64,000 nucleotides of DNA, from UHGV virus genome UHGV-1558314, one strand, 5' to 3'. Each line of letters starts with the position of its first letter. The stretch's first letter is position 1. The translations under genes and the position numbers were made by a program. This DNA comes from a virus. Under the pieces are notes generated by a model that ran no database searches, had not been told where the DNA came from, and saw nothing but the letters and a program-made list of their open reading frames with translations. Positions 3,575 to 62,111 of the stretch are shown in pieces.

Positions 3575-4225
3575 ATGCCGACAAAGGCATACACGACTGG
3601 GACTCATAGCATCGTAGTATACTATGATGGCGGAATTGTTGCAAATGGCAACACACAAAATGGGCGTTGGTACTCATCTCGACTTCAGCTTCAGCAATCA
3701 AAGGGCGCAGTTATCACTATAGCATTGCAAGATGCAAGCATTAGCGGCGTTGGTTGTGCTACTGTGTCATTTTACGCAGATGATGCAAAGATACAAAATG
3801 GCACTATGCATGTCAAACTATATTGTCGTACACAATATGAGTTTGTATGGCCACAAGCATACATGACTCAGTATGTGAATGATTTAATGTATGCTGTTTA
3901 TGTAGAGCCAAGTGACGTAAGATTTAATACAAGAGCTTTTGTCAATTGTTGCGGTTGTGGTCAAGCATTGACTGACAACTTTAATGGAGAACTCTGGGAT
4001 AATGGCTATTCAATTGAAGACACTGACATTATGCAAGCTGACGCAGACGAATGGTGGCCAATGATTAGTAATGCCTATGCAGAATTTCCATACACTGTCA
4101 TAGCATCAAACATTCCGGAAGAGTCTATGGCATCTGGACTTGCAGCTTTTCTGCAAAGTGCTGGTGTTGGCAGTGTTTTCTATGTACAAGCATTGCAGCT
4201 TGGTGAACTTGTAAGTTCATTTTAG
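3575..4225 (+). CDS. Hypothetical protein (216 aa), plus-strand island
   Basis: ORF track; followed by bidirectional terminator; short upstream ORF from ATG 3474 with hydrophobic segment overlaps its start in another frame. Confidence 0.5.
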   Translation: MPTKAYTTGTHSIVVYYDGGIVANGNTQNGRWYSSRLQLQQSKGAVITIALQDASISGVGCATVSFYADDAKIQNGTMHVKLYCRTQYEFVWPQAYMTQYVNDLMYAVYVEPSDVRFNTRAFVNCCGCGQALTDNFNGELWDNGYSIEDTDIMQADADEWWPMISNAYAEFPYTVIASNIPEESMASGLAAFLQSAGVGSVFYVQALQLGELVSSF

Positions 4226-4240
4226 ACTGTAGCATGATAC

Positions 4241-4282
4241 AAAAAGAAAGCCGAACTGAATTTCAGTTCGGCTTTCTTTTTT
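4241..4282. terminator. Bidirectional rho-independent terminator
   Basis: A5 - gaaagccgaactg / cagttcggctttc stem (13 bp) - T6 between convergent genes ending 4225 (+) and 4301 (-). Confidence 0.75.
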
Positions 4283-7507: not shown

Positions 7508-7567
7508 ATATCAACTATTTTGATTGTCAATCAATTGATTTGTTTGTTATATGTATGCAACAATGCA

Positions 7568-7601
7568 AAATGAACCTGCAAATTTCTTCGCAGGTTCATT
7601 T
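7568..7601 (-). terminator. Hairpin terminator downstream of RNR gene
   Basis: aaatgaacctgc / gcaggttcattt 12-bp stem, 10-nt loop. Confidence 0.6.
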
Positions 7602-7619
7602 TGAGTGTGTCATGCAACA

Positions 7620-10600
7620 TCAATTGCATGCTGAATGTCCGCAGTTGGTGCATCGAACACAGCCGTCAAACTTGACCATGTCACCACCGCATTCAGGGCA
7701 CTTTGCATACATTTTTGAGCCATCTTGAATATGCAGTTTCAATGCACGACCAATTGCTTTGCAGAATGTTCCGACAGATGCAAAGCTTTTTGCAGTTTGG
7801 TCGACAATTTCGCCAAGGTCAATACCATTGCGAAGCATCGTTGAGTATAGTCGAGTAATTGTTTGTTGCTCATCTGAACCAAGACGTTCTGATATATTGT
7901 CATAGTGCTGCAAGAATGACAAATTGTCACCAAGCTTGTAGTGCTTCTTATCAGTCTTTGTGATTGTCGTTTGTTCAATGCCTTGCAACTTGTCGAATTC
8001 ATCTTTGTCAAGTTCAAATGCAAAGATTTCATAAGGTCGACCGTCATCACAGCCTACAAGAATACACCACTTGCGCTTATACACTGACACGCAATACACT
8101 GCAGCAGGCAATACTGGTTTTCGTTTTGAGCGATGACCAGATTGCAAGATGTGCGACTTGTCTTTTGACTGCTTGTCATCTTTTACGAGAACACCTGCAC
8201 GTGAGCCGTCTCGATAAATTGTGCAGCCCTTGCAGCCAGATTTCCATGCAGTCATATAAATTTCACGAACGAGTTCTTTTGTTGCAGAGTTTGGAATGTT
8301 GACCGTTACAGAAATTGACGAGTCAATGTATTTTTGCAATGCACCTTGCAGTTTCACCTTGCCAATCCAGTCAACATCTTCAGTAGTTGCCTTGTAGTAT
8401 GGTGATTGAACAAGCAACTCATCAATGACTGCTTGTGGAGCATTTGATAGCCAAGCTTTGATACGAGACATTTCTGCTTCTGACCATTCAATGCCAGTAT
8501 CTTTGACAAGAGTAAATTTGCCATCGCCAAGCTGCAATCGTTTACAAATCCACTGCATCAATGGGTAGTGAACTACAGCATATTCAATGAACTTGTCACC
8601 AGTAGTCTCATCAATGAAGTTGATGTCAGCTTCATTATCAACTGCAGTAGGCTTGCGACGACGTTTATGCAGCGGCATAAAGACAGGTTCAATGCCAGAC
8701 GTTGTCTGAGTCATCAAAGCTGTAGTGCCTGTTGGCGCAATTGTGGTCGTGTTAATGTTTCGACGGCCAAATTGCTGATAAGTTTTGATATGCTCATCAT
8801 CAATCGGTTCAGATAGCATACGCTGTACGAACTTTGACTGCACATCTGTGTCATAGTCGAATATTGCAAATGCGCCACGAATCTTTGCTAAGTCAATCGA
8901 TGCTTCATAAGTAGCCTTTACAAGCCATTGTTGCATAGTGACTGCGAAGTCAATTGACTCTTGTGAACCATAGCGCAAGCCAAGCATTGCCATTGCATCG
9001 CCAAGTGCAAGGAAGCCCATGCCATATCTACGAGTATTTGTCAATTTGTCATAGACTTTGTGCCACAAGTCAAGTTCAGTCTTTTTGATGTCAAAGTCTT
9101 CTTTGTCTGACTGTACCTTTGCAATGATTCGTTGCACTGCTTCAATTTCAAGCTGTACAAGGTCATCCATGATGACTGCACAATCATACGTGTCTTTATA
9201 GAATGTCTCAAAGTCAAATGACGCATCAGCAGTCCAAGGATTAAGCACGTATGCAGTCAAATTGCGATGTGACAAAATGCAGCTTGCATATGCTGCAAGA
9301 GGTTGTTCACCACAATTTAATGTATTGACTACTTGCTTGTCATTGACTGCAATAAAGAAATTGTGGAAGTCTTCTACTGTACCATTGTACACATCTGCTT
9401 TGTTCATGTGACGTGTTGCAACGACTTTGACAATTGTATCACCAGTAGTGTCAATGTCTGCATATTTGCTGCAGCCACCTAATGCTGCACAAGCTTCACA
9501 GCAATATGACTGTTCACGATTGTCATAAGAGATTTCGAATTCTTTACCACAGCACTCGCATTGTTTGATAACTGTATTTCGTTCTGTTTTTACAAGCTCA
9601 TCAGTCTTCAATGCAATTGATAGCTTATCTGCGCTTGGCATATCAATTGCCCACAACGTGTCATTTGTCGCAAGGTCAATTGCATACTTGAAATCACCAT
9701 TAGCAAGTCTGAACTCATGATTTGCTGTGCAATTGATGACATGACCATCATCAAGCACAATCTGAATGATTTGTGCATTGTGTGCAGTCAATCTTGGTCG
9801 ACGCATTGTACGCACAACAAGCTTGCCATTAGCGTCAAGACAATACACTGGAATGTCTTCGCCGTTATCAGCAAGCTCTTTGAATGTCTTCAAGCCTGAG
9901 CCATCAGCAACAAGCACTTTTGTGTCACCAGTGAAGCATGGATTTGTTGAGCGCTCTTCATACATTTTGCCGTATGCTTTCGAGTTCGACTCTTCCATAA
10001 TGCGGTCCCAAAAGAATACACCAGGTTCTGCAGATGCCCATACATTATCAACAATTTTGTCAAACAATGCTTTTGCATCTGATGTCTTATGCAGCTCTTG
10101 ACCATTAGAGCCACGCCAAACATGCTCAAACTGTTGTTCTGCAAGCACTGCACGCATAAATGCATCAGTAAGCTTGATGGAAATGTTTGCGCATGTGATT
10201 TTCGTCAAGTCCTTTTTTGCATCAATGAACTTATCTGCATCAGGATGCTCAATTGACAATGACAACATCAATGCGCCACGCCTGCCATTTTGTGCAACTT
10301 CTTTTGTCGATGTTGAAAAACGTTCCATAAATGACACTACACCAGACGTCGTAACAGCACTGTTATGCACTTCTACGCCTTCTGGACGAATATGTGACAA
10401 ATCATGGCCGACACCACCACGACGTTTCATCAACTGAACTTGTTCTTCATCTATTTTGAAGATGCCGCCATATGAGTCTGCATCATTGCCTATTACATAG
10501 CAATTTGACATTGATGTGTAACCGCCAAGACCAATACCAGCCATTGGAGAACCACCAAGTACAAATCGCTTAAATGGCTCAAGCAAATATGCAAGTCGCT

Positions 10601-10841
10601 CTTTTGACAATACACGTTTGCCTGTCTGTTCTTCAAATTGTGATTCTATACGGTCAAATTCATTGACCCAGCGTTCATGCATATCAGACAATGAGTGTTC
10701 ATACAGATTGTCTTTGTCATGATGCAAGTATTTTGACATGCATATGTCAGCAGCCATTGAGTCGCCTGTAAATTCATGTGTCAGTGTAGTGTGCACTTCA
10801 GCATATTCAGGCGACCCAATTTGAATAGGACGTTTTGTCAT
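7620..10841 (-). CDS. nrdJ: Class II (adenosylcobalamin-type) ribonucleotide reductase with mini-intein and C-terminal zinc ribbon
   Basis: Motif STNP-[insert]-CGEQPL reconstitutes the NPCGEQ active-site loop; C-terminal CPECGG...CVRCTNCGH; ORF-track start at 10901 is TTG inside the promoter, true ATG (MTKRPIQ) at 10839-10841. Confidence 0.9.
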   Translation of the reverse strand: MTKRPIQIGSPEYAEVHTTLTHEFTGDSMAADICMSKYLHHDKDNLYEHSLSDMHERWVNEFDRIESQFEEQTGKRVLSKERLAYLLEPFKRFVLGGSPMAGIGLGGYTSMSNCYVIGNDADSYGGIFKIDEEQVQLMKRRGGVGHDLSHIRPEGVEVHNSAVTTSGVVSFMERFSTSTKEVAQNGRRGALMLSLSIEHPDADKFIDAKKDLTKITCANISIKLTDAFMRAVLAEQQFEHVWRGSNGQELHKTSDAKALFDKIVDNVWASAEPGVFFWDRIMEESNSKAYGKMYEERSTNPCFTGDTKVLVADGSGLKTFKELADNGEDIPVYCLDANGKLVVRTMRRPRLTAHNAQIIQIVLDDGHVINCTANHEFRLANGDFKYAIDLATNDTLWAIDMPSADKLSIALKTDELVKTERNTVIKQCECCGKEFEISYDNREQSYCCEACAALGGCSKYADIDTTGDTIVKVVATRHMNKADVYNGTVEDFHNFFIAVNDKQVVNTLNCGEQPLAAYASCILSHRNLTAYVLNPWTADASFDFETFYKDTYDCAVIMDDLVQLEIEAVQRIIAKVQSDKEDFDIKKTELDLWHKVYDKLTNTRRYGMGFLALGDAMAMLGLRYGSQESIDFAVTMQQWLVKATYEASIDLAKIRGAFAIFDYDTDVQSKFVQRMLSEPIDDEHIKTYQQFGRRNINTTTIAPTGTTALMTQTTSGIEPVFMPLHKRRRKPTAVDNEADINFIDETTGDKFIEYAVVHYPLMQWICKRLQLGDGKFTLVKDTGIEWSEAEMSRIKAWLSNAPQAVIDELLVQSPYYKATTEDVDWIGKVKLQGALQKYIDSSISVTVNIPNSATKELVREIYMTAWKSGCKGCTIYRDGSRAGVLVKDDKQSKDKSHILQSGHRSKRKPVLPAAVYCVSVYKRKWCILVGCDDGRPYEIFAFELDKDEFDKLQGIEQTTITKTDKKHYKLGDNLSFLQHYDNISERLGSDEQQTITRLYSTMLRNGIDLGEIVDQTAKSFASVGTFCKAIGRALKLHIQDGSKMYAKCPECGGDMVKFDGCVRCTNCGHSACN
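9315..9938 (-). other. Mini-intein (about 208 aa) inserted at the RNR catalytic cysteine
   Basis: Starts CFTGDTKVL, block F-like VYNGTVEDFHNFFIAVN, ends ...VVNTLN followed by +1 Cys; Cys-rich insert KQCECCGKEFEISYDNREQSYCCEAC; no LAGLIDADG domain seen. Confidence 0.7.
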
Positions 10842-10882
10842 TGTAACAGTGCATTTAAGTGTTTTAACAGTTTTATGTATAA

Positions 10883-10911
10883 ATTGTACAACAATGGGCA
10901 AAATTTTGCAT
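10883..10911 (-). promoter_or_regulatory. Sigma70-like promoter (ATGCAA-N17-TACAAT) for RNR
   Basis: Plus attgtacaac at 10883-10892, ttgcat at 10906-10911. Confidence 0.5.
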
Positions 10912-10958
10912 CAACTCAAAACAGCCAAGCAATGAATTGCTTGGCTGTTTTGAGTTGA
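10911..10958. terminator. 48-bp perfect palindrome (22-bp stem, 4-nt loop); terminator or protein-binding site
   Basis: tcaactcaaaacagccaagcaa tgaa ttgcttggctgttttgagttga. Confidence 0.65.
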
Positions 10959-10969
10959 TGCGCACCTGC

Positions 10970-11128
10970 TATTTTACTTGAACAGCTTCTGCAAGAATGA
11001 AACTGCAATCTACTACATCATCTTCTTCGCATTTAGAATTGAAGTACTGCTGAGCATCCTTGGCATTGTCAAATGCTTCATACCATCGATGGTCAATGTA
11101 GTCTACTAATACAAGATAGTGTTTCATA
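10970..11128 (-). CDS. Hypothetical small protein (52 aa)
   Basis: Hand-translated MKHYLVLVDYIDHRWYEAFDNAKDAQQYFNSKCEEDDVVDAVFILAEAVQVK; below ORF-track size cutoff. Confidence 0.3.
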
Positions 11129-11149: not shown

Positions 11150-11605
11150 TTATTGTGCTTTGCCAGTATAATAAGTGATTGCGTCAATGTAAGGCTGTTC
11201 TTTAGACATTAGCCAATCAATGCCAAATACTGTATCTTGGCGAAATCTTCGTTGTGCAATCATTTGAACTTCTATAGGCATATCTACGTCCTTGCCAAAT
11301 CTTATTGTATTTGCAAGTTCTGTGATTGCATATCTGAGAATTTTATCAGTGCTCATTGTTAATGTACTTTCCGGCAATTGCCAGTAGCGTTCTTGGAATG
11401 CTCGATTTGCTGAGTAAGTCCAAAGTTCAAGTCTTGCATTTCTGCAATCATATGAAACAATCAGACTTAATCCTTTTGTCCAGCAATGTGCTATCTTAAT
11501 GATAGGGTTGTTGTCATTGATTGATGACATTGCTTGCAGTTTTTCGAAATCTTTAACATATCTGTTATCATTCGAAAGCTGTTCCATTATTTCACCGTAA
11601 GTCAT
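11150..11605 (-). CDS. Hypothetical protein (151 aa), late-promoter class
   Basis: ORF track; AACCTCTACTACA immediately 5' of ATG. Confidence 0.6.
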   Translation of the reverse strand: MTYGEIMEQLSNDNRYVKDFEKLQAMSSINDNNPIIKIAHCWTKGLSLIVSYDCRNARLELWTYSANRAFQERYWQLPESTLTMSTDKILRYAITELANTIRFGKDVDMPIEVQMIAQRRFRQDTVFGIDWLMSKEQPYIDAITYYTGKAQ

Positions 11606-11780
11606 TGTAGTAGAGGTTAAAATATATTAATATATAATAATTATACTACAAAGTTGCCAGATTTGCACCAGAATGTATAACAAGTTCACACAAAATTACA
11701 AACAAAAACAAGCAGACTGCAATTACAGCCTGCTTGCACCAAAACAGAAAAAGATGATAACTTAACCCAAAAACCTAACT

Positions 11781-13322
11781 TTATCTACTTACAGAATCTC
11801 GCATTGAAATCATAACTTGCTCTTGAATTGACATAGGTATGATGTTGAAGTCTGACACTTCAGCAACGTCATCAACATCAAGTGCTCTTAATGTGTCTGT
11901 GTTACAGCAAGTCACTATGATTGACTTGCGAACATACTCATCAGCAACATTCCACAACAGCTGACAAATTGCTCGATTGTCAAGACAAATTTCATTGACT
12001 GTGCGGACAAGGCTGTACCATGCAGTCACATTATTGCGCTTCAGAGTTTCAAGCATATATCGTGCAAGCCCAAAACCTGCTACATATGACCCAGTCTGCT
12101 TATTGAATGACTCAATTGCGTATGCATCAAACAATGCTTCTGTCATCAAGGGCATTGCAGCGGTCATTCGGTAGTATCGATAGTCAACACATACAATCAA
12201 CCAGTTAACATATGAATTGACTGCGTATGCATGCGCTTTGAACCCAAGGTCATTCAAGATTTTGCAGATGGCATTGTAAGTCGATTCATCAGCATTGCCA
12301 AAGTTTGCAAGCAGCTTAACTTTAAGAATGTCTTCACCAATTGCATTTCTTGTAGCAGTGAATGATGGTATGCATGCAAAGCTTCTTTTGCAGATGTCTG
12401 TGATAAGTTGCTGTGCATCATTCACAAGCTGTCTTGCAGCCTCAGCACGCTTTTCAGACTGTGCTTGATATTTTGGCCGCAACTGTGATGAGCCAGTTGC
12501 AGCACCATATCGCATAGCAGCTTGCCAGTCCTTGAGATTATTTTGCAATTCACGAACATAGTCTGCAGCGACCATTGCAGATGGAGTTCTTTGCTGTTCG
12601 ATGAGTTTGTTGATGTTTGCAAGCACATCTGATGCAAACATATCTTTTGGTTTGACTTTCGCAATTTCAGCAAGCACTGCAGGTACACGAGCAATGCCAC
12701 GAGGCTCATTTGAAACTACTACTGCATAATCTACAAGTGCCTCACATACAAGCTGTTCATCGACAAAGTACTCAGGATTCTGCACAGCGTCTTCAACAAC
12801 TGCAATCAATGTTGCTATACGATTGCCGTCAGGCTTATTGCCAAACAGCTCAATGTACAACATATCTGCTTGTTGGTCTGTCATTGAACCTGCAATGTCA
12901 ATTGACTTTGCCAGCTTATTAAGCAGTTCAGCTTGCTTACTCGACAATCTGACTTTGTATGATGACTCTACAGCTTCTTTGACTGCTTTGAGTTTTCTAT
13001 CAATGTCAAGACTACTTTCATTGACATTCATACCAACAATGCCAGCAGCGTCAGTGTTAAATTGCTCAACAGTTTCTGCTGCAGTTATTGGCGATGACAC
13101 AATAGATTGTTTTGCATTTGCTGCAAGCTGATTGAGTCGAGTGACTGCTTCAGAATCTTGCGCAACTGCAAGATATCTTACGCACAGCTCATCAATCTGT
13201 GAAAGATAACTTTGGGTCATGTTTATCGAAAAATTGTTGTTTCTTGACGAATAGCTGTTGGATGCAATTTGCAGAAACACTTCGACATTTCTAAGTTCCG
13301 ATGATGACAACAATGTTTCCAT
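11781..13322 (-). CDS. Hypothetical protein (513 aa) with one VNE site; possible virion component
   Basis: ORF track; GMNVNESSLD motif. Confidence 0.7.
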   Translation of the reverse strand: METLLSSSELRNVEVFLQIASNSYSSRNNNFSINMTQSYLSQIDELCVRYLAVAQDSEAVTRLNQLAANAKQSIVSSPITAAETVEQFNTDAAGIVGMNVNESSLDIDRKLKAVKEAVESSYKVRLSSKQAELLNKLAKSIDIAGSMTDQQADMLYIELFGNKPDGNRIATLIAVVEDAVQNPEYFVDEQLVCEALVDYAVVVSNEPRGIARVPAVLAEIAKVKPKDMFASDVLANINKLIEQQRTPSAMVAADYVRELQNNLKDWQAAMRYGAATGSSQLRPKYQAQSEKRAEAARQLVNDAQQLITDICKRSFACIPSFTATRNAIGEDILKVKLLANFGNADESTYNAICKILNDLGFKAHAYAVNSYVNWLIVCVDYRYYRMTAAMPLMTEALFDAYAIESFNKQTGSYVAGFGLARYMLETLKRNNVTAWYSLVRTVNEICLDNRAICQLLWNVADEYVRKSIIVTCCNTDTLRALDVDDVAEVSDFNIIPMSIQEQVMISMRDSVSR

Positions 13323-14173: not shown

Positions 14174-14234
14174 TTATATTGTATGTGTTTGTATATGTAT
14201 TTTAACAGGCATTAGCAAACAATACAAAAATGCA

Positions 14235-14276
14235 AAATGAAAGTGGCTCAGATGTATATCTGAGCCACTTTCATTT
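14235..14276 (-). terminator. Hairpin terminator (19-bp perfect stem)
   Basis: aaatgaaagtggctcagat gtat atctgagccactttcattt. Confidence 0.65.
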
Positions 14277-14293
14277 GTCATATGAGTTGTCTA

Positions 14294-20661: not shown

Positions 20662-20689
20662 CAAGACCAACTCAATTGAGCTGGTCTTG
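20662..20689 (-). terminator. Hairpin with GCTCAATTGAGC-like core
   Basis: caagacca actcaattgagc tggtcttg, one mismatch. Confidence 0.5.
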
Positions 20690-25700: not shown

Positions 25701-25737
25701 AAAAAAGAACCGCTTGCAATCTAATTGCAAGCGGTTC
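25701..25737 (-). terminator. Rho-independent terminator (14-bp stem + U tract on minus strand)
   Basis: aaaaaa gaaccgcttgcaat cta attgcaagcggttc. Confidence 0.7.
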
Positions 25738-27770: not shown

Positions 27771-29060
27771 TCATTTTTCAATCTTTTTGAGCAATGCATG
27801 ACCGCAATCATAGACTTCGACGAAGCCTGAAGCAATCAATGAGTCAACATCTATAGAAGACGTTCGTATAATATGTTCGTGTGTCTTGATATTGTATAGA
27901 TGACACTGAACCCATGTTTTGACGACTTCATAATTTGGATACAATCGAGGGTCTTCTTTTGACAAATCAAGTTCTATGACATCATCAGTTTTGAGCTGCT
28001 CAGTTTTGTTTATGACATCTCTAATGTGCAGCAACATATCATATCTACAATCCCAGTCAAATATTGTTATACATCGATAGCCATTGCGTGCTGCAACATC
28101 TGTTTTGAATTTGTGAGCATACGCAGGTTTGGCGTCATTATCAACAGAATGCCCAGTTATGTAACCAAAGCCCTTTGTTGCATTGTGTGTAACAGTTGGA
28201 TTGATTTCAATTACAACAGCATCTTTTCGCAAATCATATAACAAGTTCTCAATAGGATGCTCAGTAACAAAATCAAGATTGCAAGAATGTTTCAAATCCC
28301 ATTGCCACGACATATTGATGTTTGATGTCAACCTTGCAGATGCTTGCGGCAATTGCAATGCATGTTCTACACCATAGCGTTCACGTAATGTTGCATGAGC
28401 CCTTTGCATATTTTGCATTGCGGGACCCCAATGCTCAAATTTTGTAGCATTTATCTTTGCAATTTTGTCTGGTAGCTTATTTGTACTATCTACACCATAT
28501 TTAATAAGACAACTGATGCGAATATTGTATTGTCGTTTTATTCGAGAATGTGACGTAGCACATCTACTAAATCGTTCAAATGGTGTTGATGCAATCAATG
28601 CATCTCGTTCTGACTCAAGAGCTTTGACATGTTCAAGCACTTCTGCTGGTACATTATCATAGTCAATCACATATTGCTGACGTGGTTGCGTTACATGAGT
28701 TTTGCCGTGTGTCTTAAGCTTATTGATTTGTATGCTATACTTTCTGCGTATATGTGGATGTCTTGATGCATCAGATTGCGCAATTTCATGCTCTCGTTGC
28801 TCTTCAAGTTTAGCTATTTGCTCAACAATAGCTGGTTCAATGTCTGGTTTGTCTGATATGACTATGTTTTTAAGCTCATCAAGACGCTTGTTGAGATATT
28901 TGACACGTCTTGTATATGTTATCTTTGCAACTTGATGGTTTGTATGATGCTTGCCTACTTGCTGTTCTGGTTGATTCAGCGTGTCATCAAGGCGTTGCTT
29001 AGCGAGCTCAAATTCATTATCAAGCCATGCTTTATGCGCATCAAATTCATCTTGTGTCAT
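27771..29060 (-). CDS. Homing-endonuclease-like protein, paralog 3
   Basis: VVIEINPTVTHNATKGFGY ... GYRCITIFDWDCRYD ... VEVYDCGHALL. Confidence 0.75.
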   Translation of the reverse strand: MTQDEFDAHKAWLDNEFELAKQRLDDTLNQPEQQVGKHHTNHQVAKITYTRRVKYLNKRLDELKNIVISDKPDIEPAIVEQIAKLEEQREHEIAQSDASRHPHIRRKYSIQINKLKTHGKTHVTQPRQQYVIDYDNVPAEVLEHVKALESERDALIASTPFERFSRCATSHSRIKRQYNIRISCLIKYGVDSTNKLPDKIAKINATKFEHWGPAMQNMQRAHATLRERYGVEHALQLPQASARLTSNINMSWQWDLKHSCNLDFVTEHPIENLLYDLRKDAVVIEINPTVTHNATKGFGYITGHSVDNDAKPAYAHKFKTDVAARNGYRCITIFDWDCRYDMLLHIRDVINKTEQLKTDDVIELDLSKEDPRLYPNYEVVKTWVQCHLYNIKTHEHIIRTSSIDVDSLIASGFVEVYDCGHALLKKIEK

Positions 29061-37707: not shown

Positions 37708-38376
37708 ATGTCAACAAACAATCATGGCAAGCTCAGATTACTTGAGCTCAAAGAAGCACAGCCATATGATACACTCAAAATTGGCATCGACGTATCAGTA
37801 GATGCTACTGGCATGTGCATGATATTTGGCAAGACTGTCGCATTGTTCAAATTTACACCACATTTGCCGCCAGAAGATGACAGTTCAGATGATGTGAACT
37901 TTGTGCAGTTCAACAAAATCTATCTGCAAACATCATCTTCTGCAAGAGAACGCTCAAAAATGCATACTCGACATACGCTTGCAAATAAGATTGTTGATGC
38001 TATTGACATGTTCATGCAGGAAATCTGGCCGAACAGTCCAGCAAACATTCAAATTGTCACAGAAGGGTCTGCATATGGCTATGCTGCGCATAACTCTAAC
38101 AGCTTAGTTGAACTTGCTGAATTTAGAAGCGTGATTTTAGAAAGAGTCTATCATCGTTGGCCTCTTGGTACACATCTAAGTCTTGATGTCATTGCGCCAA
38201 AATCATTGAAGAAACACGCGACTGGTGATGGCAAAGCAGACAAACTAAAGATGATTGAAGCTGCAATCGCTAAGTTGACACGCATTCATTGGGCAGGCAA
38301 AATTGACGATGAATGTGACGCATTGCATCTTTGTATGTATGAGCCATTAAGCAATCCTGAACCACGACTTTGGTGA
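37708..38376 (+). CDS. RuvC-like Holliday junction resolvase
   Basis: LKIGIDVSVDATGM (first Asp), VTEGSAYGY (Glu), DDECDALHLCMYE (Asp/His). Confidence 0.8.
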   Translation: MSTNNHGKLRLLELKEAQPYDTLKIGIDVSVDATGMCMIFGKTVALFKFTPHLPPEDDSSDDVNFVQFNKIYLQTSSSARERSKMHTRHTLANKIVDAIDMFMQEIWPNSPANIQIVTEGSAYGYAAHNSNSLVELAEFRSVILERVYHRWPLGTHLSLDVIAPKSLKKHATGDGKADKLKMIEAAIAKLTRIHWAGKIDDECDALHLCMYEPLSNPEPRLW

Positions 38377-41053: not shown

Positions 41054-42172
41054 TCATAGTAATGATGCTTGTAAAATGTCTATAATGTGCTCATCAGTTT
41101 CACATAAATCTGTATCACTTATTATGCAATATGCAGACAATTCAGTAGATGCATTAACATATGCAGTCATTGCAGCAGCTTTTGCTATGACTATATCATC
41201 ATGCAGCCATTTAGCAGGCTTTATTTCAACAACAATTTGCGCGTTATTAAAATGCACAACAAAATCCGCGATATATACATGTGTAGCACTATTGAACACA
41301 TACTTACACCTTGCAGTTTCTATTGAATAGTGTAACTTATTGCGTTCACAAAAGTGTATAAATTTGCGTTCATTGTTTGAACGAAACGACGCTTTAGCTG
41401 ATAAACAGTATTTTGCAGTTTGAACATAGCCTCTCATGCAGTTCATAAATGGCTGCAATGACATTATGTCTCGACCATTTAACAATGCTCTATGCTGTGC
41501 TTCTGCACGTCTACGTTTAACTTCTGGTTTAGCATCTGTAATTTTGCGAGTAGCACGTATACGTTCTTTAACACCAGGTCGAGCCATGATTGCTTTTGCA
41601 GAAGCACTTCGATGCGCATGTGTTTCAGGCCTTGCGTTAGCAATTAGCATCCCATGCAATTGAGTGTCTTTAACTTCTTGACGCTGCATTGCTATTCGAG
41701 TGCTCTGTGAAATCTTTTGCCTAACTGCAGGATTTGACATTGCACGTTTTGCGCGTTCTGACGCCTTTACACGTAGTTCTGTATTATTTGCATACATGGC
41801 ACGTTGAGTATTACTAATTTTGGTGCCAATGCGTTGTTTATATTCTGCATCTGCAAAGTATTTTGCATTTCTGCATGCATGACTGCAAACATCGCCGTCA
41901 CCATAGCCACGTGTTACACACCACCATGTTAATTGCTTGCCACATATAGAACATGTTGGGATATCTGAGTCATCTTTAATTTCACATAGATATTTGTCAT
42001 ACCATTGCTTCAATGAATAGCCTACAATAGGTTCAGCCTTTCTACTAAAATACGTGCTAAATATCCATGTATCAAGTTCAGGCACGTATAACTGAAACTT
42101 TGTACGTGTTATTTGCTTAACAAATTTGTCCCAATTCTTAGCGGCATTGCGCTTAGCGTCTTCAGCAGTCAT
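41054..42172 (-). CDS. Zinc-finger / tandem-repeat DNA-binding protein with C-terminal PD-(D/E)xK nuclease domain (homing-endonuclease-like)
   Basis: CSICGK...CSHAC; four to five about 17-aa repeats (KISNTQRAM, KASERAKRAM, KISQSTRIAM, SASAKAIMA); YIADFVV...QIVVEIKP. Confidence 0.7.
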   Translation of the reverse strand: MTAEDAKRNAAKNWDKFVKQITRTKFQLYVPELDTWIFSTYFSRKAEPIVGYSLKQWYDKYLCEIKDDSDIPTCSICGKQLTWWCVTRGYGDGDVCSHACRNAKYFADAEYKQRIGTKISNTQRAMYANNTELRVKASERAKRAMSNPAVRQKISQSTRIAMQRQEVKDTQLHGMLIANARPETHAHRSASAKAIMARPGVKERIRATRKITDAKPEVKRRRAEAQHRALLNGRDIMSLQPFMNCMRGYVQTAKYCLSAKASFRSNNERKFIHFCERNKLHYSIETARCKYVFNSATHVYIADFVVHFNNAQIVVEIKPAKWLHDDIVIAKAAAMTAYVNASTELSAYCIISDTDLCETDEHIIDILQASLL

Positions 42173-43073: not shown

Positions 43074-43523
43074 TCATTTGAAGAATCGTTCAGTTATGAT
43101 TTTGAACTTAACATTTTGTTGTTTGCAATATGCAATTGCGGCATTCCACTTTGCGACATTTTTGCAATATGTTTCTTTCGCATAATTTGACGCAGACCGA
43201 CTTGGGCATTGCGTTTCATGCCATGGTTTCACCTCAACGACATATGTAGAATCTGCGGTTTTGAACAAAAAGTCGGGCCAATATGTGTGCGTTACGCCAT
43301 CAAGCTCATATGCAATTGGCAGTGTCTCAGATGACCAAGCAAGAACCTTTGAACTCATATCGCAAAGCTTGCAAAATCTGAATTCAAGTGAACTGCGGTA
43401 TATGATTGTCTTGTCTGTCGCGTCTTTGCCTTTGTACTTATCTGGGTTCATGCATCTGTAGTAGCCTTGCTTGTAGGGCCCTGATTTGTTTGGCTTAAGT
43501 TGCTTAATGTTCATTGCAGTCAC
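43074..43523 (-). CDS. PD-(D/E)xK-family nuclease (149 aa)
   Basis: YWPDFLF ... YVVEVKP (PD ... ExK) core. Confidence 0.7.
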   Translation of the reverse strand: MTAMNIKQLKPNKSGPYKQGYYRCMNPDKYKGKDATDKTIIYRSSLEFRFCKLCDMSSKVLAWSSETLPIAYELDGVTHTYWPDFLFKTADSTYVVEVKPWHETQCPSRSASNYAKETYCKNVAKWNAAIAYCKQQNVKFKIITERFFK

Positions 43524-46480: not shown

Positions 46481-47736
46481 TAACTGTCATACGACCAGTG
46501 ACCACAGTCATACACTGGCACAAATCCAGTGTCAAGCATTTCTTGCTCATTAAAGTCATCATCAAGCAAGTGTTCACCCGATTTTGTATTAACCCAGTGC
46601 TTCTTAATTGTGCATTCATCAACCGCAAAGGGATTAAGTACATTGTCAGTACAGTCAATGAACGCATCATTCAAATGCGCTTCAATGATATGAAGCACAA
46701 TTTCTTGGTCGTGCCAATCAAATATCATGAGTGGCGTGTAGCCACATGCAATTGCAAGTTGTTGCTTCCACCAATGATAGTTTGGCTATTTTGCTTCTGC
46801 AGCATTTCGTTTAAAGCCATACACGCTATTATGAGTATGCGTCGGGTTAACGTCAATTAGCAGATTGCCATAATACAGGTCATATGACGTTATGCCAACA
46901 CCATGTTCAAACTCAAAATGCACACCAAGATGTTCTTCAATGTATGATTGCCACCATCTGTTTGGCGCAGATATGATTTGCCCATTTGCTTGCATACATT
47001 TATTTGTCATGCAAAACCATGGCACACCGTAACGTTCCATACAGGTTTTTGAAATTGCAGCAAGCCATTCATCTTTGTCTCTATGCGGCCATGCATAACC
47101 ATAACGCAGACGGCATGTTTGTTGAGCTTTAGCAACGATTGGCGCTAAACGTTCACCGTATATTTCACGTTTAGTTGCGATGGCTTTGCGTGGATTAGTC
47201 CATCCAGCATCACCCCATCGCTCAAGCTTCGTTTGCTGAGATTTTTCAACAATCAGTTCAAGATTCTCACCATATTTTTGACGACGAGTTTGCATTGCTG
47301 CAACATAATCTGTAATGCATCTATGGCCATACAAACGTTCTTTTGTCGCACATTGAACATCTACTGGACCTTGTGGATAGCCATAGCGTTCCATATTCGT
47401 TTGACGAATATGTGCTTTATCGCCATATGAACTGCCGTAGCGTGCAACTTTAGTGGCAATTGTTTGCTTGATGTTGCCTGCTTTAGAACCATAACGAGCT
47501 TCTTTAGTTGCTACGCATTTTTGTTTGACTTCTGCTCTGTTCCAATTATGCTCAACGCCATGTTTACGAAGATGGCCAATTTTCATGTTGTACACGTTTT
47601 TGATATGACCATGAGATGTCTTACGTGGTGCATATCGTACAAATGGTGTTTCTGCAAGCAACTTATCTCGTTCAGCTTCAAGCTCTTTAATTCGAGCTTC
47701 AAGAGCTTCACCAGTCAAAGGCTCTACATGTTTCAT
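46480..47736 (-). pseudogene. Homing-endonuclease-like paralog 4 interrupted by a single in-frame TAG (46786-46788)
   Basis: ORFs 46786..47736 and 46480..46728 are in the same frame; intervening codons read *PNYHWWKQQLAIACGYTPLMIFDW and align with intact paralogs. Confidence 0.7.
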
Positions 47737-48233
47737 TCGTGTTTGCCAGTTTGAAATAACGAATCAATTGGGATGTGAATACCAGGTTTGGATTGAATGT
47801 TCCATCCGCGCGCCAAACCATTAAGTACGCAGCTCGTAAGGTAAGAAAACGCGTTTTGAGTTACTGTTGGGTCAAACATTTGCCACTTTGACGCCAAAAT
47901 TAGCATGGCTTCTGCTGCGACATCTGCTTGCAAGTCTTTGTCTCTGTAGTATAAACGTCTCTGCACATGTTTGATAAGCAACTCAAACATGTGTATAAGT
48001 TTATCTGACAGCTGCCCAGATACTTTGCATGCGCATATTTCTGCACAAAGTTCTTTGTTGTTAATGTAATAGTTTGATGGCTGACCACGTTTCTTTGTGT
48101 TTGCTGCTTCTTCACGAAGTTGGTCTTCAAGCTGTGTCAACATGTCATCATCTGACACATATTGAATATGCTTATCTTCTGGCAGTTTAGATTCTATTGG
48201 TTGTAAGTTTTGCAGTGGCATAACAGTGAGCAT
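47733..48233 (-). CDS. Late-transcription sigma factor, T4 gp55-like
   Basis: PSNYYINNKEL matches T4 gp55 N-terminal KYNYVNNKEL; QNAFSYLTSCVLNGLARG region similar; ATG at 48231-48233. Confidence 0.7.
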   Translation of the reverse strand: MLTVMPLQNLQPIESKLPEDKHIQYVSDDDMLTQLEDQLREEAANTKKRGQPSNYYINNKELCAEICACKVSGQLSDKLIHMFELLIKHVQRRLYYRDKDLQADVAAEAMLILASKWQMFDPTVTQNAFSYLTSCVLNGLARGWNIQSKPGIHIPIDSLFQTGKHE

Positions 48234-48249
48234 TAAAATTCCTATATAA

Positions 48250-48360
48250 ATTGTACAACATGCAAAATGTTTTTGCACCATTTTGATACAACATGCATTG
48301 CATATTTGCAATGATGCAAAGTACGATGTACACAACATGCATTGCATATTTGCAATCATA
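48250..48360 (-). repeat. Three tandem promoter-like repeat units (about 35-40 bp each)
   Basis: attgtacaacatgcaaaatgtttttgcacc / gatacaacatgcattgcatatttgcaatg / gtacacaacatgcattgcatatttgcaatc. Confidence 0.55.
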
Positions 48361-54939: not shown

Positions 54940-54959
54940 TTATTGTTATTATATGTTGA

Positions 54960-54988
54960 TATTGTACAACATGTGTTAACTTTTTGCA
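54960..54988 (-). promoter_or_regulatory. Sigma70-like promoter (ATGCAA-N17-TACAAT)
   Basis: Plus attgtacaac at 54960-54969, ttgcat at 54983-54988. Confidence 0.5.
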
Positions 54989-56175
54989 TGACCACAATCA
55001 TACACCGCAACATAGCCAGCATCAATCATCTCTTGCTCATCTTGTCCGCAATCTTCAATATGTTCTTTTGTCTTCAAATGACACCAGTGTTTGCGAATTG
55101 TTGACTTGTCATCTGACAATTGCGGATTGAGTGCGAAGTCAGTTGAGTCTACTGGTTCACCTGCAAGATGCTTTCTAATGACATCAATGACAACATCAAA
55201 TGGCATCCAGTCAAACACTGTAATGCAAGTGTAGCTGTGTTTGATAGCAAGTTGTGTTTTGTTAAAATGGTTGTCATATGGTCGTTGCCAATTATGATTT
55301 GCATTGAACACAATATTTGCAAAACTACGCGTGCTATTATGAGAAATAGTTGGGTTAAGTTCAATTAGCAACTTATGCGATTTGCAAACAATGTCATATG
55401 ACAATGACGTGTTCTCAAATGTAAATTCTTGCTCAAAATGCACATCAAGGTTATCAAATAGCATGTTAAGCCTTGTGCATATTTTTGTATTGTGTGCAGA
55501 CTTTGCTTTAGATTTTGCTCTGCATTGAGGCAATTGGCATGGCCACACTACACCATGACGTGACAATGTTGTTGCACGAATTGCGTCAAGATTCGTTGAT
55601 GGATTGCCATATCGAGCTATTCGAGTTTGCCTTGCTTTGTCTATATTGCCTGGGCCTGCATTGCCCCATCGCTGCAACTTTGTTTGTCGAGCTTGTTCAT
55701 GATTGCTGTAATATGGGTCTCCATATCGTTCAAGCTTTGTTTGCTTTAACTTACTCATGTCGCCAAGCCCATTGCCATACTTAGCACGCTTTGTTTCTAT
55801 GCCTTTCTTTAGATTGCCTCGTTTGTTGCCATATTTTGCAATGTTGTGTGCATTACGTTTTTCAATGTCACCAAACCCATTGCCATATCGTGCAAATTTT
55901 GTTGCTTGCGCTTTTTCAAAATTGACTGCTAATGTGCCATAACGAGCATACTTAGTTGCTTTGCCCTTATCAACGACTTCTTTACGATGCAATGCAGCTT
56001 CAACACCATATTTTCGCAAATTTGTAATTTTTGCATTGTATCGTCGTCTAATTGTTGCATGAGTGTTGTTACGAGACCCTGTTCTGACATATTCAGTTGC
56101 AGCAAGTTCAGCATCACGTAACTGCTCAAGTTCTGCAATTCGTTGTTCAAGTTCAGCGCCTACAAGTGGTTTCAT
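54976..56175 (-). CDS. Homing-endonuclease-like protein, paralog 5, between the two polymerase ORFs
   Basis: Seven about 17-aa repeats with (K/R)YG core; LLIELNPTISHNSTRSF ... SYTCITVFDW ... VAVYDCGH. Confidence 0.75.
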   Translation of the reverse strand: MKPLVGAELEQRIAELEQLRDAELAATEYVRTGSRNNTHATIRRRYNAKITNLRKYGVEAALHRKEVVDKGKATKYARYGTLAVNFEKAQATKFARYGNGFGDIEKRNAHNIAKYGNKRGNLKKGIETKRAKYGNGLGDMSKLKQTKLERYGDPYYSNHEQARQTKLQRWGNAGPGNIDKARQTRIARYGNPSTNLDAIRATTLSRHGVVWPCQLPQCRAKSKAKSAHNTKICTRLNMLFDNLDVHFEQEFTFENTSLSYDIVCKSHKLLIELNPTISHNSTRSFANIVFNANHNWQRPYDNHFNKTQLAIKHSYTCITVFDWMPFDVVIDVIRKHLAGEPVDSTDFALNPQLSDDKSTIRKHWCHLKTKEHIEDCGQDEQEMIDAGYVAVYDCGHAKS

Positions 56176-56183
56176 GTGTTGTT

Positions 56184-62050: not shown

Positions 62051-62064
62051 GATTACAGCACAAC

Positions 62065-62095
62065 AAAAAAGTCCGAGCAATGCTCGGACTTTTTT
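62065..62095. terminator. Bidirectional rho-independent terminator
   Basis: aaaaaagtccgagc aat gctcggactttttt. Confidence 0.75.
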
Positions 62096-62111
62096 GTTGT
62101 GCACTGATTGT

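What the first reader, a model, noticed from the sequence alone, without database searches (positions are those of the whole stretch)
10911..10958. 48-bp perfect palindrome upstream of the RNR promoter
A 22-bp perfect stem with a 4-nt loop is much longer than the other terminators here (10-14 bp). It could be a strong terminator, a cruciform, or a binding site regulating the RNR operon.
Basis: seen in the sequence. Interest (0 to 1): 0.4.

Follow-up and report, generated by a model that had tools for sequence, protein, structure and literature searches.

The report
Long palindromic terminator abutting RNR promoter
The palindrome is real and slightly longer than reported (54 bp), and it is most likely an unusually long transcription stop signal in a gut phage, placed directly against the promoter of the ribonucleotide reductase gene; an ordinary kind of element, except that its centre is flipped in some related strains.

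Summary
The palindrome is real and larger than reported: 54 bp (10908-10961), with two perfect 26-nt arms and a 2-nt centre. Shuffled sequence gives arms of at most 11 nt.

All neighbouring genes are on the minus strand. On that strand the element starts 7 nt after the stop codon of a 52-aa gene. Its last 4 nt overlap the -35-like box of a promoter motif found 17 times in the window, here serving a class II-type RNR gene.

Its core (12-bp stem, A4/T4 flanks, TTTTG tail) matches 11 other post-gene hairpins in this phage, whose stems are 11-21 bp. It is therefore the long extreme of a family of intrinsic terminators. The extra length is 10 outer base pairs lying beyond the T-tract.

In 16 related metagenome contigs it is single-copy and always at this position. 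The centre is TC in 8 sequences, counting the window, and GA in 6, which amounts to an inversion. The A/T runs mostly change symmetrically (3/3, 4/4, 5/5; one contig 6/4). It is kept intact where the upstream gene is replaced.

No NrdR box, Rfam family, telomere resolvase or extra copies were found. The role of the outer arms is unresolved. No expression data were available, so termination is inferred. Verdict: a new member of a known kind, of modest interest.

The parts
10908..10961 (-). 54-bp perfect palindrome. Minus strand 5'-GCATCAACTC AAAA CAGCCAAGCAAT TC ATTGCTTGGCTG TTTT GAGTTGATGC-3'. The sequence reads the same on both strands apart from the centre.
10918..10951 (-). Inner terminator core: A4 (10951-10948), 12-nt stem arm (10947-10936), centre TC (10935-10934), 12-nt stem arm (10933-10922), T4 (10921-10918). 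The inner hairpin alone folds at -17.4 kcal/mol.
   Evidence: same anatomy as the other post-gene hairpins
10952..10961 (-). Outer 5' arm GCATCAACTC, which pairs with 10917-10908. It lies beyond the A-tract. The replaceable upstream gene cassette ends exactly at its first base.
10908..10917 (-). Outer 3' arm GAGTTGATGC, downstream of the T-tract. Its last 4 nt (ATGC) are part of the -35-like box of the RNR promoter.
10876..10915 (-). RNR promoter-like motif, first flavour: -35-like ATGCAA 10911-10906, a 17-nt spacer containing the dyad GCAAAATTTTGC, and -10-like TACAAT 10888-10883. PWM score 37.9.
   Evidence: conserved in all relatives
7620..10841 (-). Ribonucleotide reductase large subunit with a mini-intein. 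It matches the Pfam RNR barrel domain, and its closest homologues are annotated as B12-dependent RNR. ATG at 10841; the predicted 5'UTR is about 35 nt.
10969..11127 (-). 52-aa gene of unknown function. Its stop codon lies 7 nt before the palindrome. Some strains carry unrelated small genes in its place.
11150..11605 (-). 151-aa gene of unknown function, the first gene of the two-gene unit that ends at the palindrome.
11633..11672 (-). Promoter-like motif, second flavour (TAGTATAAT with the leader AACCTCTAC), in front of the 151-aa/52-aa unit. This is a weak match to a model built only from first-flavour sites: PWM score 14.1, just above the cut-off of 14.
11708..11737 (-). Conventional terminator hairpin (13 bp followed by TTTTGTTTG) ahead of that promoter. 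Its strain variants keep G.U wobble pairs on the sense strand.
7566..7603 (-). Terminator hairpin (17 bp, CAAAA...TTTTG) 16 nt after the RNR stop codon. It closes the single-gene RNR unit.

Best explanation
The element is a factor-independent (intrinsic) transcription terminator whose sequence is symmetric. It lies in a large myovirus-type gut phage whose capsid resembles those of jumbo phages of Bacteroidota.

It ends the two-gene unit made of the 151-aa and 52-aa genes. It also shields the adjacent RNR promoter from read-through, so that RNR runs as its own single-gene unit: promoter 10915-10876, gene 7620-10841, terminator 7566-7603.

Inferred mechanism: when RNA polymerase has made ...CAGCCAAGCAAUUCAUUGCUUGGCUG-UUUUGAG, the 12-bp inner hairpin (-17.4 kcal/mol) forms next to the U-tract and releases the transcript. 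The released RNA can then pair A4 with U4, and part of the outer arms, into a blunt hairpin of about 19 bp that should resist 3' exonucleases.

The 10 outer base pairs lie beyond the U-tract, so they can only form in read-through RNA or in DNA. I think they were most likely created, and are kept perfect, by replication template switching across the hairpin. That mechanism also explains the flipped centre and the symmetric indels. Whether the extra length adds a function, such as a second termination chance in front of the A/U-only stretch AAAAUUUU or resistance to antitermination, is open.

Shown: the anatomy, position, conservation and variant pattern. Inferred: termination itself, the promoter, and the origin of the outer arms.
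For: 1. Position. All local genes are on the minus strand. The element begins 7 nt after the TAG of the 52-aa gene and ends inside the -35-like box of the next promoter.

2. Family resemblance. Twelve hairpins in the window, including this one, have stems of 11-25 bp. Ten of them lie 7-43 nt after a minus-strand stop codon, and most are followed by TTTT(G) on the minus strand. Three other hairpins are followed within about 40 nt by a -35-like TGCAAA, namely 25707-25737, 11708-11737 and 20662-20689; PWM promoter matches 38-40 nt downstream back this for the first two.

3. Core anatomy. CAAAA-stem-loop-stem-TTTTG is the same as in the terminator at 7566-7603.

4. Promoter motif. There are 17 hits on the minus strand and none on the plus strand, nearly all shortly upstream of a gene start (one lies inside an ORF and two are weak matches at ORF edges).

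5. Conservation. The element is present once, at this position, in all 16 related contigs that reach this position. It is also present where the upstream gene has been swapped.

6. Variants keep the helix. A3/T3, A4/T4 and A5/T5 versions and an enlarged loop all still fold at -40 to -43 kcal/mol.

7. Neighbouring hairpin. Variants of 11708-11737 keep G.U pairs only on the sense strand, as expected for RNA hairpins in this phage.

8. Literature. Typical terminator stems are 7-9 bp, and stems over 14 bp make terminators resistant to processive antitermination (PMC10325885). Template switching can create perfect stems, extend them, invert loops and produce instant compensatory changes (PMC8794818).
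Against: There are no expression data, so termination is inferred.

The T-tract is short: TTTTGAGTT, and only T3 in variant d. Once the full 26-bp stem has formed it is followed by AAAATTTT rather than by a T-run. For that reason the terminator scan did not list it.

The simple terminator model does not explain the 10 outer base pairs (chance about 1e-6), nor why they stay perfectly Watson-Crick while neighbouring hairpins tolerate wobbles and mismatches.

The flanking genes run in the same direction, so the bidirectional symmetry has no obvious use. No plus-strand promoter motif was found.

The relatives are only 1-5% diverged, so conservation has limited statistical power.

One contig (L021) has an asymmetric A6/T4 version, at -35.6 kcal/mol.
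Confidence: 0.7

Rival explanations
1. A two-state terminator and RNase III site, working like lambda sib/tI retroregulation. Terminated transcripts carry a protective hairpin of about 16-19 bp. Read-through transcripts, for example under antitermination or from a strong upstream promoter, also pair the outer arms into a perfect 25-26-bp duplex. RNase III would cut that duplex, which would separate and destabilise the upstream message and reset the 5' end of the RNR message. This would add to the terminator role rather than replace it.
For: The outer 10 bp lie on either side of the A/T-tracts, so they can pair only after read-through. The full helix is 25-26 bp of perfect duplex, above the roughly 20-22 bp needed by RNase III (my own knowledge of the enzyme). 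The perfect pairing is kept in variants a-d. A second hairpin, at 62058-62102, has the same outer/A-tract/core design.
Against: No RNase III or antiterminator gene turned up in the window proteins scanned, although the host enzyme would suffice. The outer arm of the 62058 hairpin is damaged in the relative, so the outer arms are not generally protected. Template switching can keep the arms perfect without any selection. There are no RNA data.
Confidence: 0.12
2. A DNA-level control element of the RNR promoter. It would be either an operator for a dimeric phage or host regulator, or a supercoiling-driven cruciform that hides the -35 and upstream region.
For: The 3' arm covers about -37 to -63, and the whole palindrome about -37 to -90, relative to the predicted start, and it overlaps the -35-like box by 4 nt. 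The element stays with the RNR side when the upstream gene is swapped. The centre inversion shows that the arms interact in DNA. The phage encodes proteins resembling junction-cutting enzymes, RuvC-like and TnsA/endonuclease I-like.
Against: 54 bp is far longer than known operators. The variants change half-site spacing by -2 to +2 bp in the A/T runs and by +4 at the apex, yet keep the pairing. No NrdR box is present. None of the other 16 promoter copies has such a palindrome. There are no further copies of the arm in the window, the related 174-kb contig or 185,579 genomes.
Confidence: 0.06
3. A recombination or module-exchange junction. The palindrome would mainly matter as a hotspot where gene cassettes are swapped between phage strains.
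For: Homology between strains carrying different upstream genes resumes exactly at the first base of the palindrome. A second variable cassette, the plus-strand gene 3575-4225, ends exactly at the first base of the hairpin at 4241-4281.
Against: Terminators are common mosaic boundaries simply because they lie between selectable units. There are only two examples. No recombinase target features or repeated copies were found.
Confidence: 0.05
4. A telomere-resolvase (protelomerase) target, a replication origin or a packaging site.
For: Its length and perfection resemble telRL-type sites of linear-plasmid prophages (my own knowledge).
Against: No telomere resolvase was found among the window proteins scanned. 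Contigs from many samples read straight through the element. There is no GC-skew turn at 10-12 kb. The centre is not self-complementary. Only about a third of the genome was visible.
Confidence: 0.01

Closest known systems
Rho-independent (intrinsic) terminators, especially symmetric 'bidirectional' ones with an A-tract mirroring the U-tract
   Same: A GC-containing stem-loop followed by a T-run on the transcribed strand. It lies a few nt after a stop codon, an A-tract mirrors the T-tract, and a promoter follows.
   Different: The stem is 25-26 bp, against the usual 7-9 bp (PMC10325885). The pairing continues 10 bp beyond the A/T-tracts. The flanking genes are co-directional rather than convergent. 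The T-run has only 4 T.
Long-stem, antitermination-resistant terminators (TerR of plasmid pLS20; PMC10325885)
   Same: An extraordinarily long stem at the end of a transcription unit that protects the downstream unit from read-through. In that system the stem length, not its sequence, is what matters.
   Different: TerR has a 15-bp stem directly before its U-tract. Here only 12-14 bp precede the U-tract. No antitermination system has been identified in this phage.
Lambda sib/tI retroregulation and T7 intergenic RNase III sites
   Same: A terminator hairpin that grows into a longer duplex only in read-through RNA. It sits at an intergenic position in a phage.
   Different: Here the duplex is perfect, whereas the T7 sites have internal loops. 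There is no evidence of cleavage or antitermination. This is a functional analogy only.
Hairpin-loop 'flip-flop' inversions and template-switch mutations (plastid small inversions, e.g. PMC6824564; RNA hairpins, PMC8794818)
   Same: The loop is exactly reverse-complemented between close relatives while the arms are unchanged. Changes to the two arms are simultaneous and symmetric. The stem is extended.
   Different: Those cases were described in plastid spacers, rRNA and miRNA genes, not in phage terminators. Here two (possibly three) hairpins of one phage population are polymorphic.
NrdR boxes upstream of nrd genes
   Same: A palindromic element upstream of a ribonucleotide reductase gene.
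   Different: NrdR boxes are tandem 16-bp sites with the consensus acaCwAtATaTwGtgt. None is present near this RNR gene.

Membership tests
Intrinsic (Rho-independent) terminator | Stable GC-containing stem-loop in the RNA of the transcribed strand | tested here: met
   The inner hairpin has an 11-12-bp stem at -17.4 kcal/mol and the full hairpin folds at -42.6 kcal/mol. The region has a z-score of -6.3 against shuffles.
Intrinsic (Rho-independent) terminator | U-rich tract immediately 3' of the stem | tested here: inconclusive
   TTTTGAGTT follows the inner stem (6 of 9 are T), and strains vary from T3 to T5. After the full stem the tail is AAAATTTT. The consensus scan did not list the element.
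Intrinsic (Rho-independent) terminator | Located at the 3' end of a transcription unit, on the same strand as the gene | tested here: met
   It starts 7 nt after the stop codon of the 52-aa gene and is followed by a promoter motif. Nine of the 11 other hairpins lie 9-43 nt after a stop codon.
Intrinsic (Rho-independent) terminator | Causes transcript release | not testable with these tools
   This needs Term-seq, RNA-seq or in-vitro transcription.
Bidirectional terminator | A-tract upstream that mirrors the U-tract, so that both strands encode a terminator | tested here: met
   The element is a perfect palindrome with A4/T4, so it reads the same on both strands.
Bidirectional terminator | Sits between convergent transcription units | tested here: not met
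   Both neighbouring genes are on the minus strand, and no plus-strand promoter motif exists in the window.
Antitermination-resistant long-stem terminator (TerR type) | Stem longer than about 14 bp | tested here: inconclusive
   There are 25-26 bp in all, but only 12-14 bp precede the first U-tract. The criterion comes from PMC10325885.
Antitermination-resistant long-stem terminator (TerR type) | A processive antitermination system acts on the upstream unit | not tested
   No NusG-, N- or Q-like hit appeared among the window proteins scanned. Only about a third of the genome was available and many proteins have no family.
sib-type RNase III retroregulator | The duplex extends only when sequence beyond the termination point has been transcribed | tested here: met
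   The outer 3' arm (10917-10908) lies downstream of the T-tract.
sib-type RNase III retroregulator | RNase III cleavage that changes the stability of the upstream message | not testable with these tools
   This needs RNA-end mapping with and without RNase III.
NrdR operator | Tandem 16-bp NrdR boxes upstream of the nrd gene | tested here: not met
   Allowing up to 3 mismatches gives a single chance-level match, at 13097, and none near RNR.
Repeated palindromic elements (REP/MITE-like) | Many dispersed copies | tested here: not met
   There is one copy in the window and one in the related 174-kb contig. None was found in 185,579 reference genomes, and metagenome hits occur only at this locus.
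Protelomerase target (telRL type) | A telomere resolvase gene in the genome, usually adjacent | tested here: inconclusive
   None of the window proteins scanned (most ORFs of at least 120 aa) matched a resolvase. Two thirds of the genome was not seen. Contigs read through the site.
Rfam RNA families | Match at or above a family's gathering score | tested here: not met
   There are no matches at gathering thresholds in the window. The only weaker hits are generic miRNA-precursor hairpins of 15-36 bits, against cut-offs of 60-200.
Hairpin flip-flop / template-switch polymorphism | The loop is exactly reverse-complemented between close relatives while the arms are unchanged | tested here: met
   The centre is TC in 8 sequences, counting the window, and GA in 6. 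At hairpin 14230-14281, L018 is the exact reverse complement of L005, including an asymmetric mismatch.

The most novel reading that the evidence does not exclude
The outer arms may have a purpose. In that reading the element is a two-state switch in a gut phage of Bacteroidota. It would terminate ordinary transcripts, but in read-through RNA it would form a 26-bp duplex that is processed (sib-like retroregulation). Alternatively, as DNA it would fold into a hairpin or cruciform that occludes the -35 of the RNR promoter. The flip-flop polymorphism would then be the footprint of frequent hairpin extrusion in vivo.
Probability: 0.1. Interest if true: 0.55.

Novelty: new member of a known kind. 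Interest (0 to 1): 0.3.

Why it matters
On its own this is routine annotation, but it fixes the transcription map around a phage RNR gene: promoter, single-gene unit and flanking terminators.

It also led to a phage-wide promoter motif that can be used to annotate this uncultured lineage.

The population data give a clean natural example of hairpin inversion and symmetric arm changes in phage terminators. That matters for anyone who reads compensatory changes as proof of selection on RNA structure, because template switching can produce the same pattern.

If the outer arms prove functional, this would be a compact terminator and processing switch in a poorly studied group of Bacteroidota phages.

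Tried and rejected
- **GenBank phages:** megablast of the locus gave no match. tblastn with the 151-aa protein also gave none.
- **Distant relatives for covariation:** the 151-aa protein has only homologues of about 89-99% identity among 5.8 billion proteins. IMG/VR scans with three neighbouring proteins returned only one contig of about 95% identity. A real covariation test across deep divergence was therefore impossible.
- **Rfam:** nothing at gathering thresholds. Sub-threshold miRNA hairpin hits were dismissed as generic.
- **NrdR box:** absent.
- **Outer-arm word as a repeated binding motif:** GTTGATGC/TTGATGCA looked enriched. The excess disappears under a Markov model and reflects a genome-wide 4.7-fold excess of TGCA. 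Rejected.
- **Telomere resolvase, RNase III, antiterminator:** not found among the window proteins scanned.
- **Recurrent inversion:** flanking SNPs are mosaic across five haplotype groups, so only one or more inversion events can be claimed.
- **More strains around hairpin 4241-4281:** the look-up returned only a contig identical to the window.
- **Technical failures:** One translation was in the wrong frame and was redone.
- **Assembly artefact as the cause of the flips:** considered and judged unlikely. Both states occur in SPAdes, MEGAHIT (k141) and Logan contigs. The k-mer sizes exceed the arm length, and the flip at 14230 carries an asymmetric mismatch with it. It cannot be excluded without reads.

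Full report
**Observation**

The window holds a perfect palindrome of 54 bp, not 48. Its arms are 10908-10933 and 10936-10961, 26 nt each and 100% complementary, around a 2-nt centre. Neither strand of the arm recurs elsewhere in the window, even with 3 mismatches allowed, and no match was seen in 100 shuffles. In mononucleotide shuffles the longest perfect hairpin arm is 8-11 nt, against 26 observed. It is the longest inverted repeat of the window. As RNA it folds into a 25-bp stem with a 4-nt loop at -42.6 kcal/mol. The surrounding 161 nt have a z-score of -6.3.

**Context**

The window is phage DNA. Almost all ORFs are on the minus strand. Tail sheath, portal, head protease, major head protein and a split DNA polymerase are recognisable. 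The capsid protein is 33-37% identical to those of jumbo phages of Bacteroidota (Chryseobacterium MA9V, Tenacibaculum PTm1/pT24, Prevotella phages) and of Sphingomonas PAU. The RNR is closest to those of uncultured gut phages, crAss-like phages and Bacteroides phages. I saw no Shine-Dalgarno sequence before the gene starts I read, which fits a Bacteroidota host.

Read on the minus strand, the order is:
- the TAG stop of a 52-aa gene (10969-11127);
- 7 nt of spacer;
- the palindrome;
- 66 nt of spacer;
- the ATG (10841) of a ribonucleotide reductase that carries an intein.

**The promoter**

The word TTGTACAA recurs 30-60 nt upstream of several gene starts. A weight matrix built from nine such sites finds 17 hits, all on the minus strand and none on the plus strand, nearly all shortly upstream of a gene start. 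The consensus is TGCAAAA-N12-TG-TTGTACAAT. This can be read as a -35-like TTGCAA/ATGCAA box, a 17-nt spacer and a -10-like TACAAT box.

The RNR copy scores 37.9. Its -35-like ATGCAA lies at 10911-10906, so it overlaps the last four bases of the palindrome, and its -10-like box is at 10888-10883. A weaker match of a second flavour of the motif (score 14.1, just above the cut-off), at about 11672-11633, precedes the 151-aa gene. The palindrome therefore closes a two-gene unit (151-aa and 52-aa genes) and directly abuts the promoter of a single-gene RNR unit. That unit ends at another hairpin, 7566-7603, 16 nt after the RNR stop.

**Anatomy compared with the other hairpins**

Twelve intergenic hairpins, counting this one, have stems of 11-25 bp. 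Ten lie 7-43 nt after a minus-strand stop codon, and most are followed by TTTT(G) on the minus strand. Three others are followed within about 40 nt by a -35-like TGCAAA: 25707-25737, 11708-11737 and 20662-20689. PWM promoter matches 38-40 nt downstream back this for the first two.

The core of the palindrome is CAAAA-CAGCCAAGCAAT-TC-ATTGCTTGGCTG-TTTTG. This has the same layout as the 7566-7603 terminator (CAAAATGAACCTGC...GCAGGTTCATTTTG). What is special is ten further base pairs, GCATCAACTC/GAGTTGATGC, outside the A/T-tracts. These have a chance probability of about 1e-6. One other hairpin, 62058-62102, has a similar 7-bp outer extension.

The outer 3' arm lies downstream of the T-tract. It therefore cannot take part in termination at that tract and can pair only in read-through RNA or in DNA.

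The consensus terminator scan did not list the element. This is presumably because the stem, extended to its maximum, is followed by AAAATTTT. Stems of 7-9 bp are typical in model bacteria, and stems over 14 bp confer resistance to processive antitermination in one studied system (PMC10325885).

**Relatives**

Only close relatives exist. They are one 174,628-bp IMG/VR contig of about 95% identity and 15 further metagenome contigs. The element is single-copy in the IMG/VR contig and absent from 185,579 reference genomes.

Five versions occur, written on the RNR-sense strand:
- (a) A4/T4 with centre TC: the window, L007, L012 and L017-L020.
- (b) A4/T4 with centre GA: L006 and L008.
- (c) A5/T5 with centre GA and the outermost G changed to A: L009, L010, L011 and L015.
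- (d) A3/T3 with an apex enlarged by a 4-nt insertion: L013 and L014. In these two contigs phage homology stops 233 nt into RNR, so they may be relics or chimeras.
- (e) A6/T4 with centre TC: L021.

Four points follow from these versions.

1. TC and GA are reverse complements of each other, so the centre has been inverted. Both states occur in SPAdes, MEGAHIT and Logan assemblies. Flanking SNPs are mosaic, so only one or more inversion events can be claimed.
2. The A/T-run lengths change symmetrically in three versions. Version (e) can be derived from (c) by a single misaligned inversion, since the total of 10 is kept and the centre is flipped.
3. Versions (a)-(d) still fold at -40 to -43 kcal/mol, and (e) at -35.6. 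The distance between arm halves varies while the pairing is preserved. That argues for a hairpin and against a dimeric protein site on duplex DNA.
4. In L017-L020 the 52-aa gene is replaced by unrelated small genes, and homology resumes at the first base of the palindrome.

**Inversion is not unique to this hairpin**

At 14230-14281 the L018 version is the exact reverse complement of the L005 version. This includes the loop (ATAC/GTAT) and an asymmetric T.G/C.A position. At 62058-62102 the single central base is A in the window and T in the relative, and the runs go from A6/T6 to A7/T7. In that relative the outer arm is damaged, so outer extensions are not universally protected. Variants of 11708-11737 keep G.U pairs on the sense strand only, as expected for RNA hairpins.

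Replication template switching is documented to create and extend perfect stems, to invert loops and to give instant compensatory changes (PMC8794818). Small hairpin inversions are also well known in plastid spacers. The perfect symmetry seen here is therefore not by itself proof of selection.

**Alternatives tested**

- No NrdR box lies near RNR.
- No Rfam family matches.
- No telomere resolvase, RNase III or antiterminator was found among the window proteins scanned. A RuvC-like protein and two TnsA/endonuclease I-like proteins are present.
- There is no GC-skew turn at this position.
- The apparent enrichment of the outer-arm word reflects a genome-wide 4.7-fold excess of TGCA.

**Conclusion**

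The best reading (confidence about 0.7) is an unusually long, sequence-symmetric intrinsic terminator. It ends the small upstream unit and insulates the RNR promoter. Its outer arms and flip-flop polymorphism are most simply explained by template switching across the hairpin.

A sib-like RNase III role for the full duplex in read-through RNA (about 0.12) and a DNA-level role at the promoter (about 0.06) remain possible. Both can be tested by RNA-end mapping, mutant templates and read-level counting of flip and flop.

All functional statements are inferences, because no expression data were available. The finding is a new member of a known kind and of modest interest.

Noticed in passing
window 682-61694, minus strand (e.g. 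10915-10876, 15981, 23366, 52692, 59815): A phage-wide promoter-like motif, TGCAAAA-N12-TG-TTGTACAAT, has 17 copies, all on the minus strand and nearly all upstream of genes. The spacer often contains a TGCAAA...TTTGCA dyad. The motif does not match the Bacteroidota TTTG/TAnnTTTG consensus, so a phage-encoded sigma factor or activator may read it. A weak Sigma70_r2 hit lies at 47733-48359.
   Followed up: partly
window 61694, 18414, 11648, 3397 (minus strand): A second flavour of the promoter motif (TTGTAATATATA / TAGTATAAT) is coupled to a conserved leader, AACCTCTAC, 3-9 nt before the ATG. The leader resembles the anti-Shine-Dalgarno sequence rather than the Shine-Dalgarno sequence. It may mark a separate temporal class or an unusual translation signal.
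   Followed up: no
window 14230-14281; L005 and L018: A second terminator hairpin is inverted as a whole between strains. The inversion includes the loop (ATAC/GTAT) and an asymmetric mismatch.
   Followed up: yes
window 62058-62102; L024 7810-7880: A 22-nt-arm palindrome has the same outer/A-tract/core design. In the IMG/VR relative its centre base is flipped A to T, the runs change from A6/T6 to A7/T7, and the outer 5' arm has lost 2 nt.
   Followed up: partly
window 4240-4281 and 3575-4225 (+); L023: The plus-strand gene 3575-4225 (weak match to a CorA-like copper-binding domain) is absent from the IMG/VR relative. Homology starts exactly at the first base of the 4241-4281 hairpin. This is a second variable cassette bounded by a palindromic terminator.
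   Followed up: partly
window about 9280-9890 (RNR residues about 318-505); L021 1130-2484: The RNR carries a mini-intein with a Cys-rich insert after ...RSTNP|C. Contig L021 has a different intein, about 255 aa longer and with an HNH endonuclease motif, at the same site.
   Followed up: partly
window 54949-56181 (gene 54976-56175); also 27771-29060 and 46786-47736: A 399-aa DUF7487 gene is missing from the IMG/VR relative, where the junction is clean. DUF7487 domains occur in three genes of the window, so this may be a mobile gene family.
   Followed up: no
L013 and L014, position 1316 onward (corresponds to window 10608): Contigs from two independent samples share a junction 233 nt into RNR, after which unrelated and apparently GC-richer DNA follows. 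This is either a chimeric assembly or a real relic or recombinant. These contigs carry the A3/T3 version of the palindrome with the enlarged loop.
   Followed up: partly
whole window: The tetranucleotide TGCA is 4.7-fold over-represented relative to base composition (2176 observed against 467 expected, both strands). This inflates many TGCA-containing 8-mers.
   Followed up: partly
window 37708-38376 (+), 43074-43523 (-), 41054-42172 (-): There is a RuvC-like protein (at the Pfam threshold) and two TnsA/endonuclease I-like proteins. These are candidate junction-resolving or homing nucleases.
   Followed up: no
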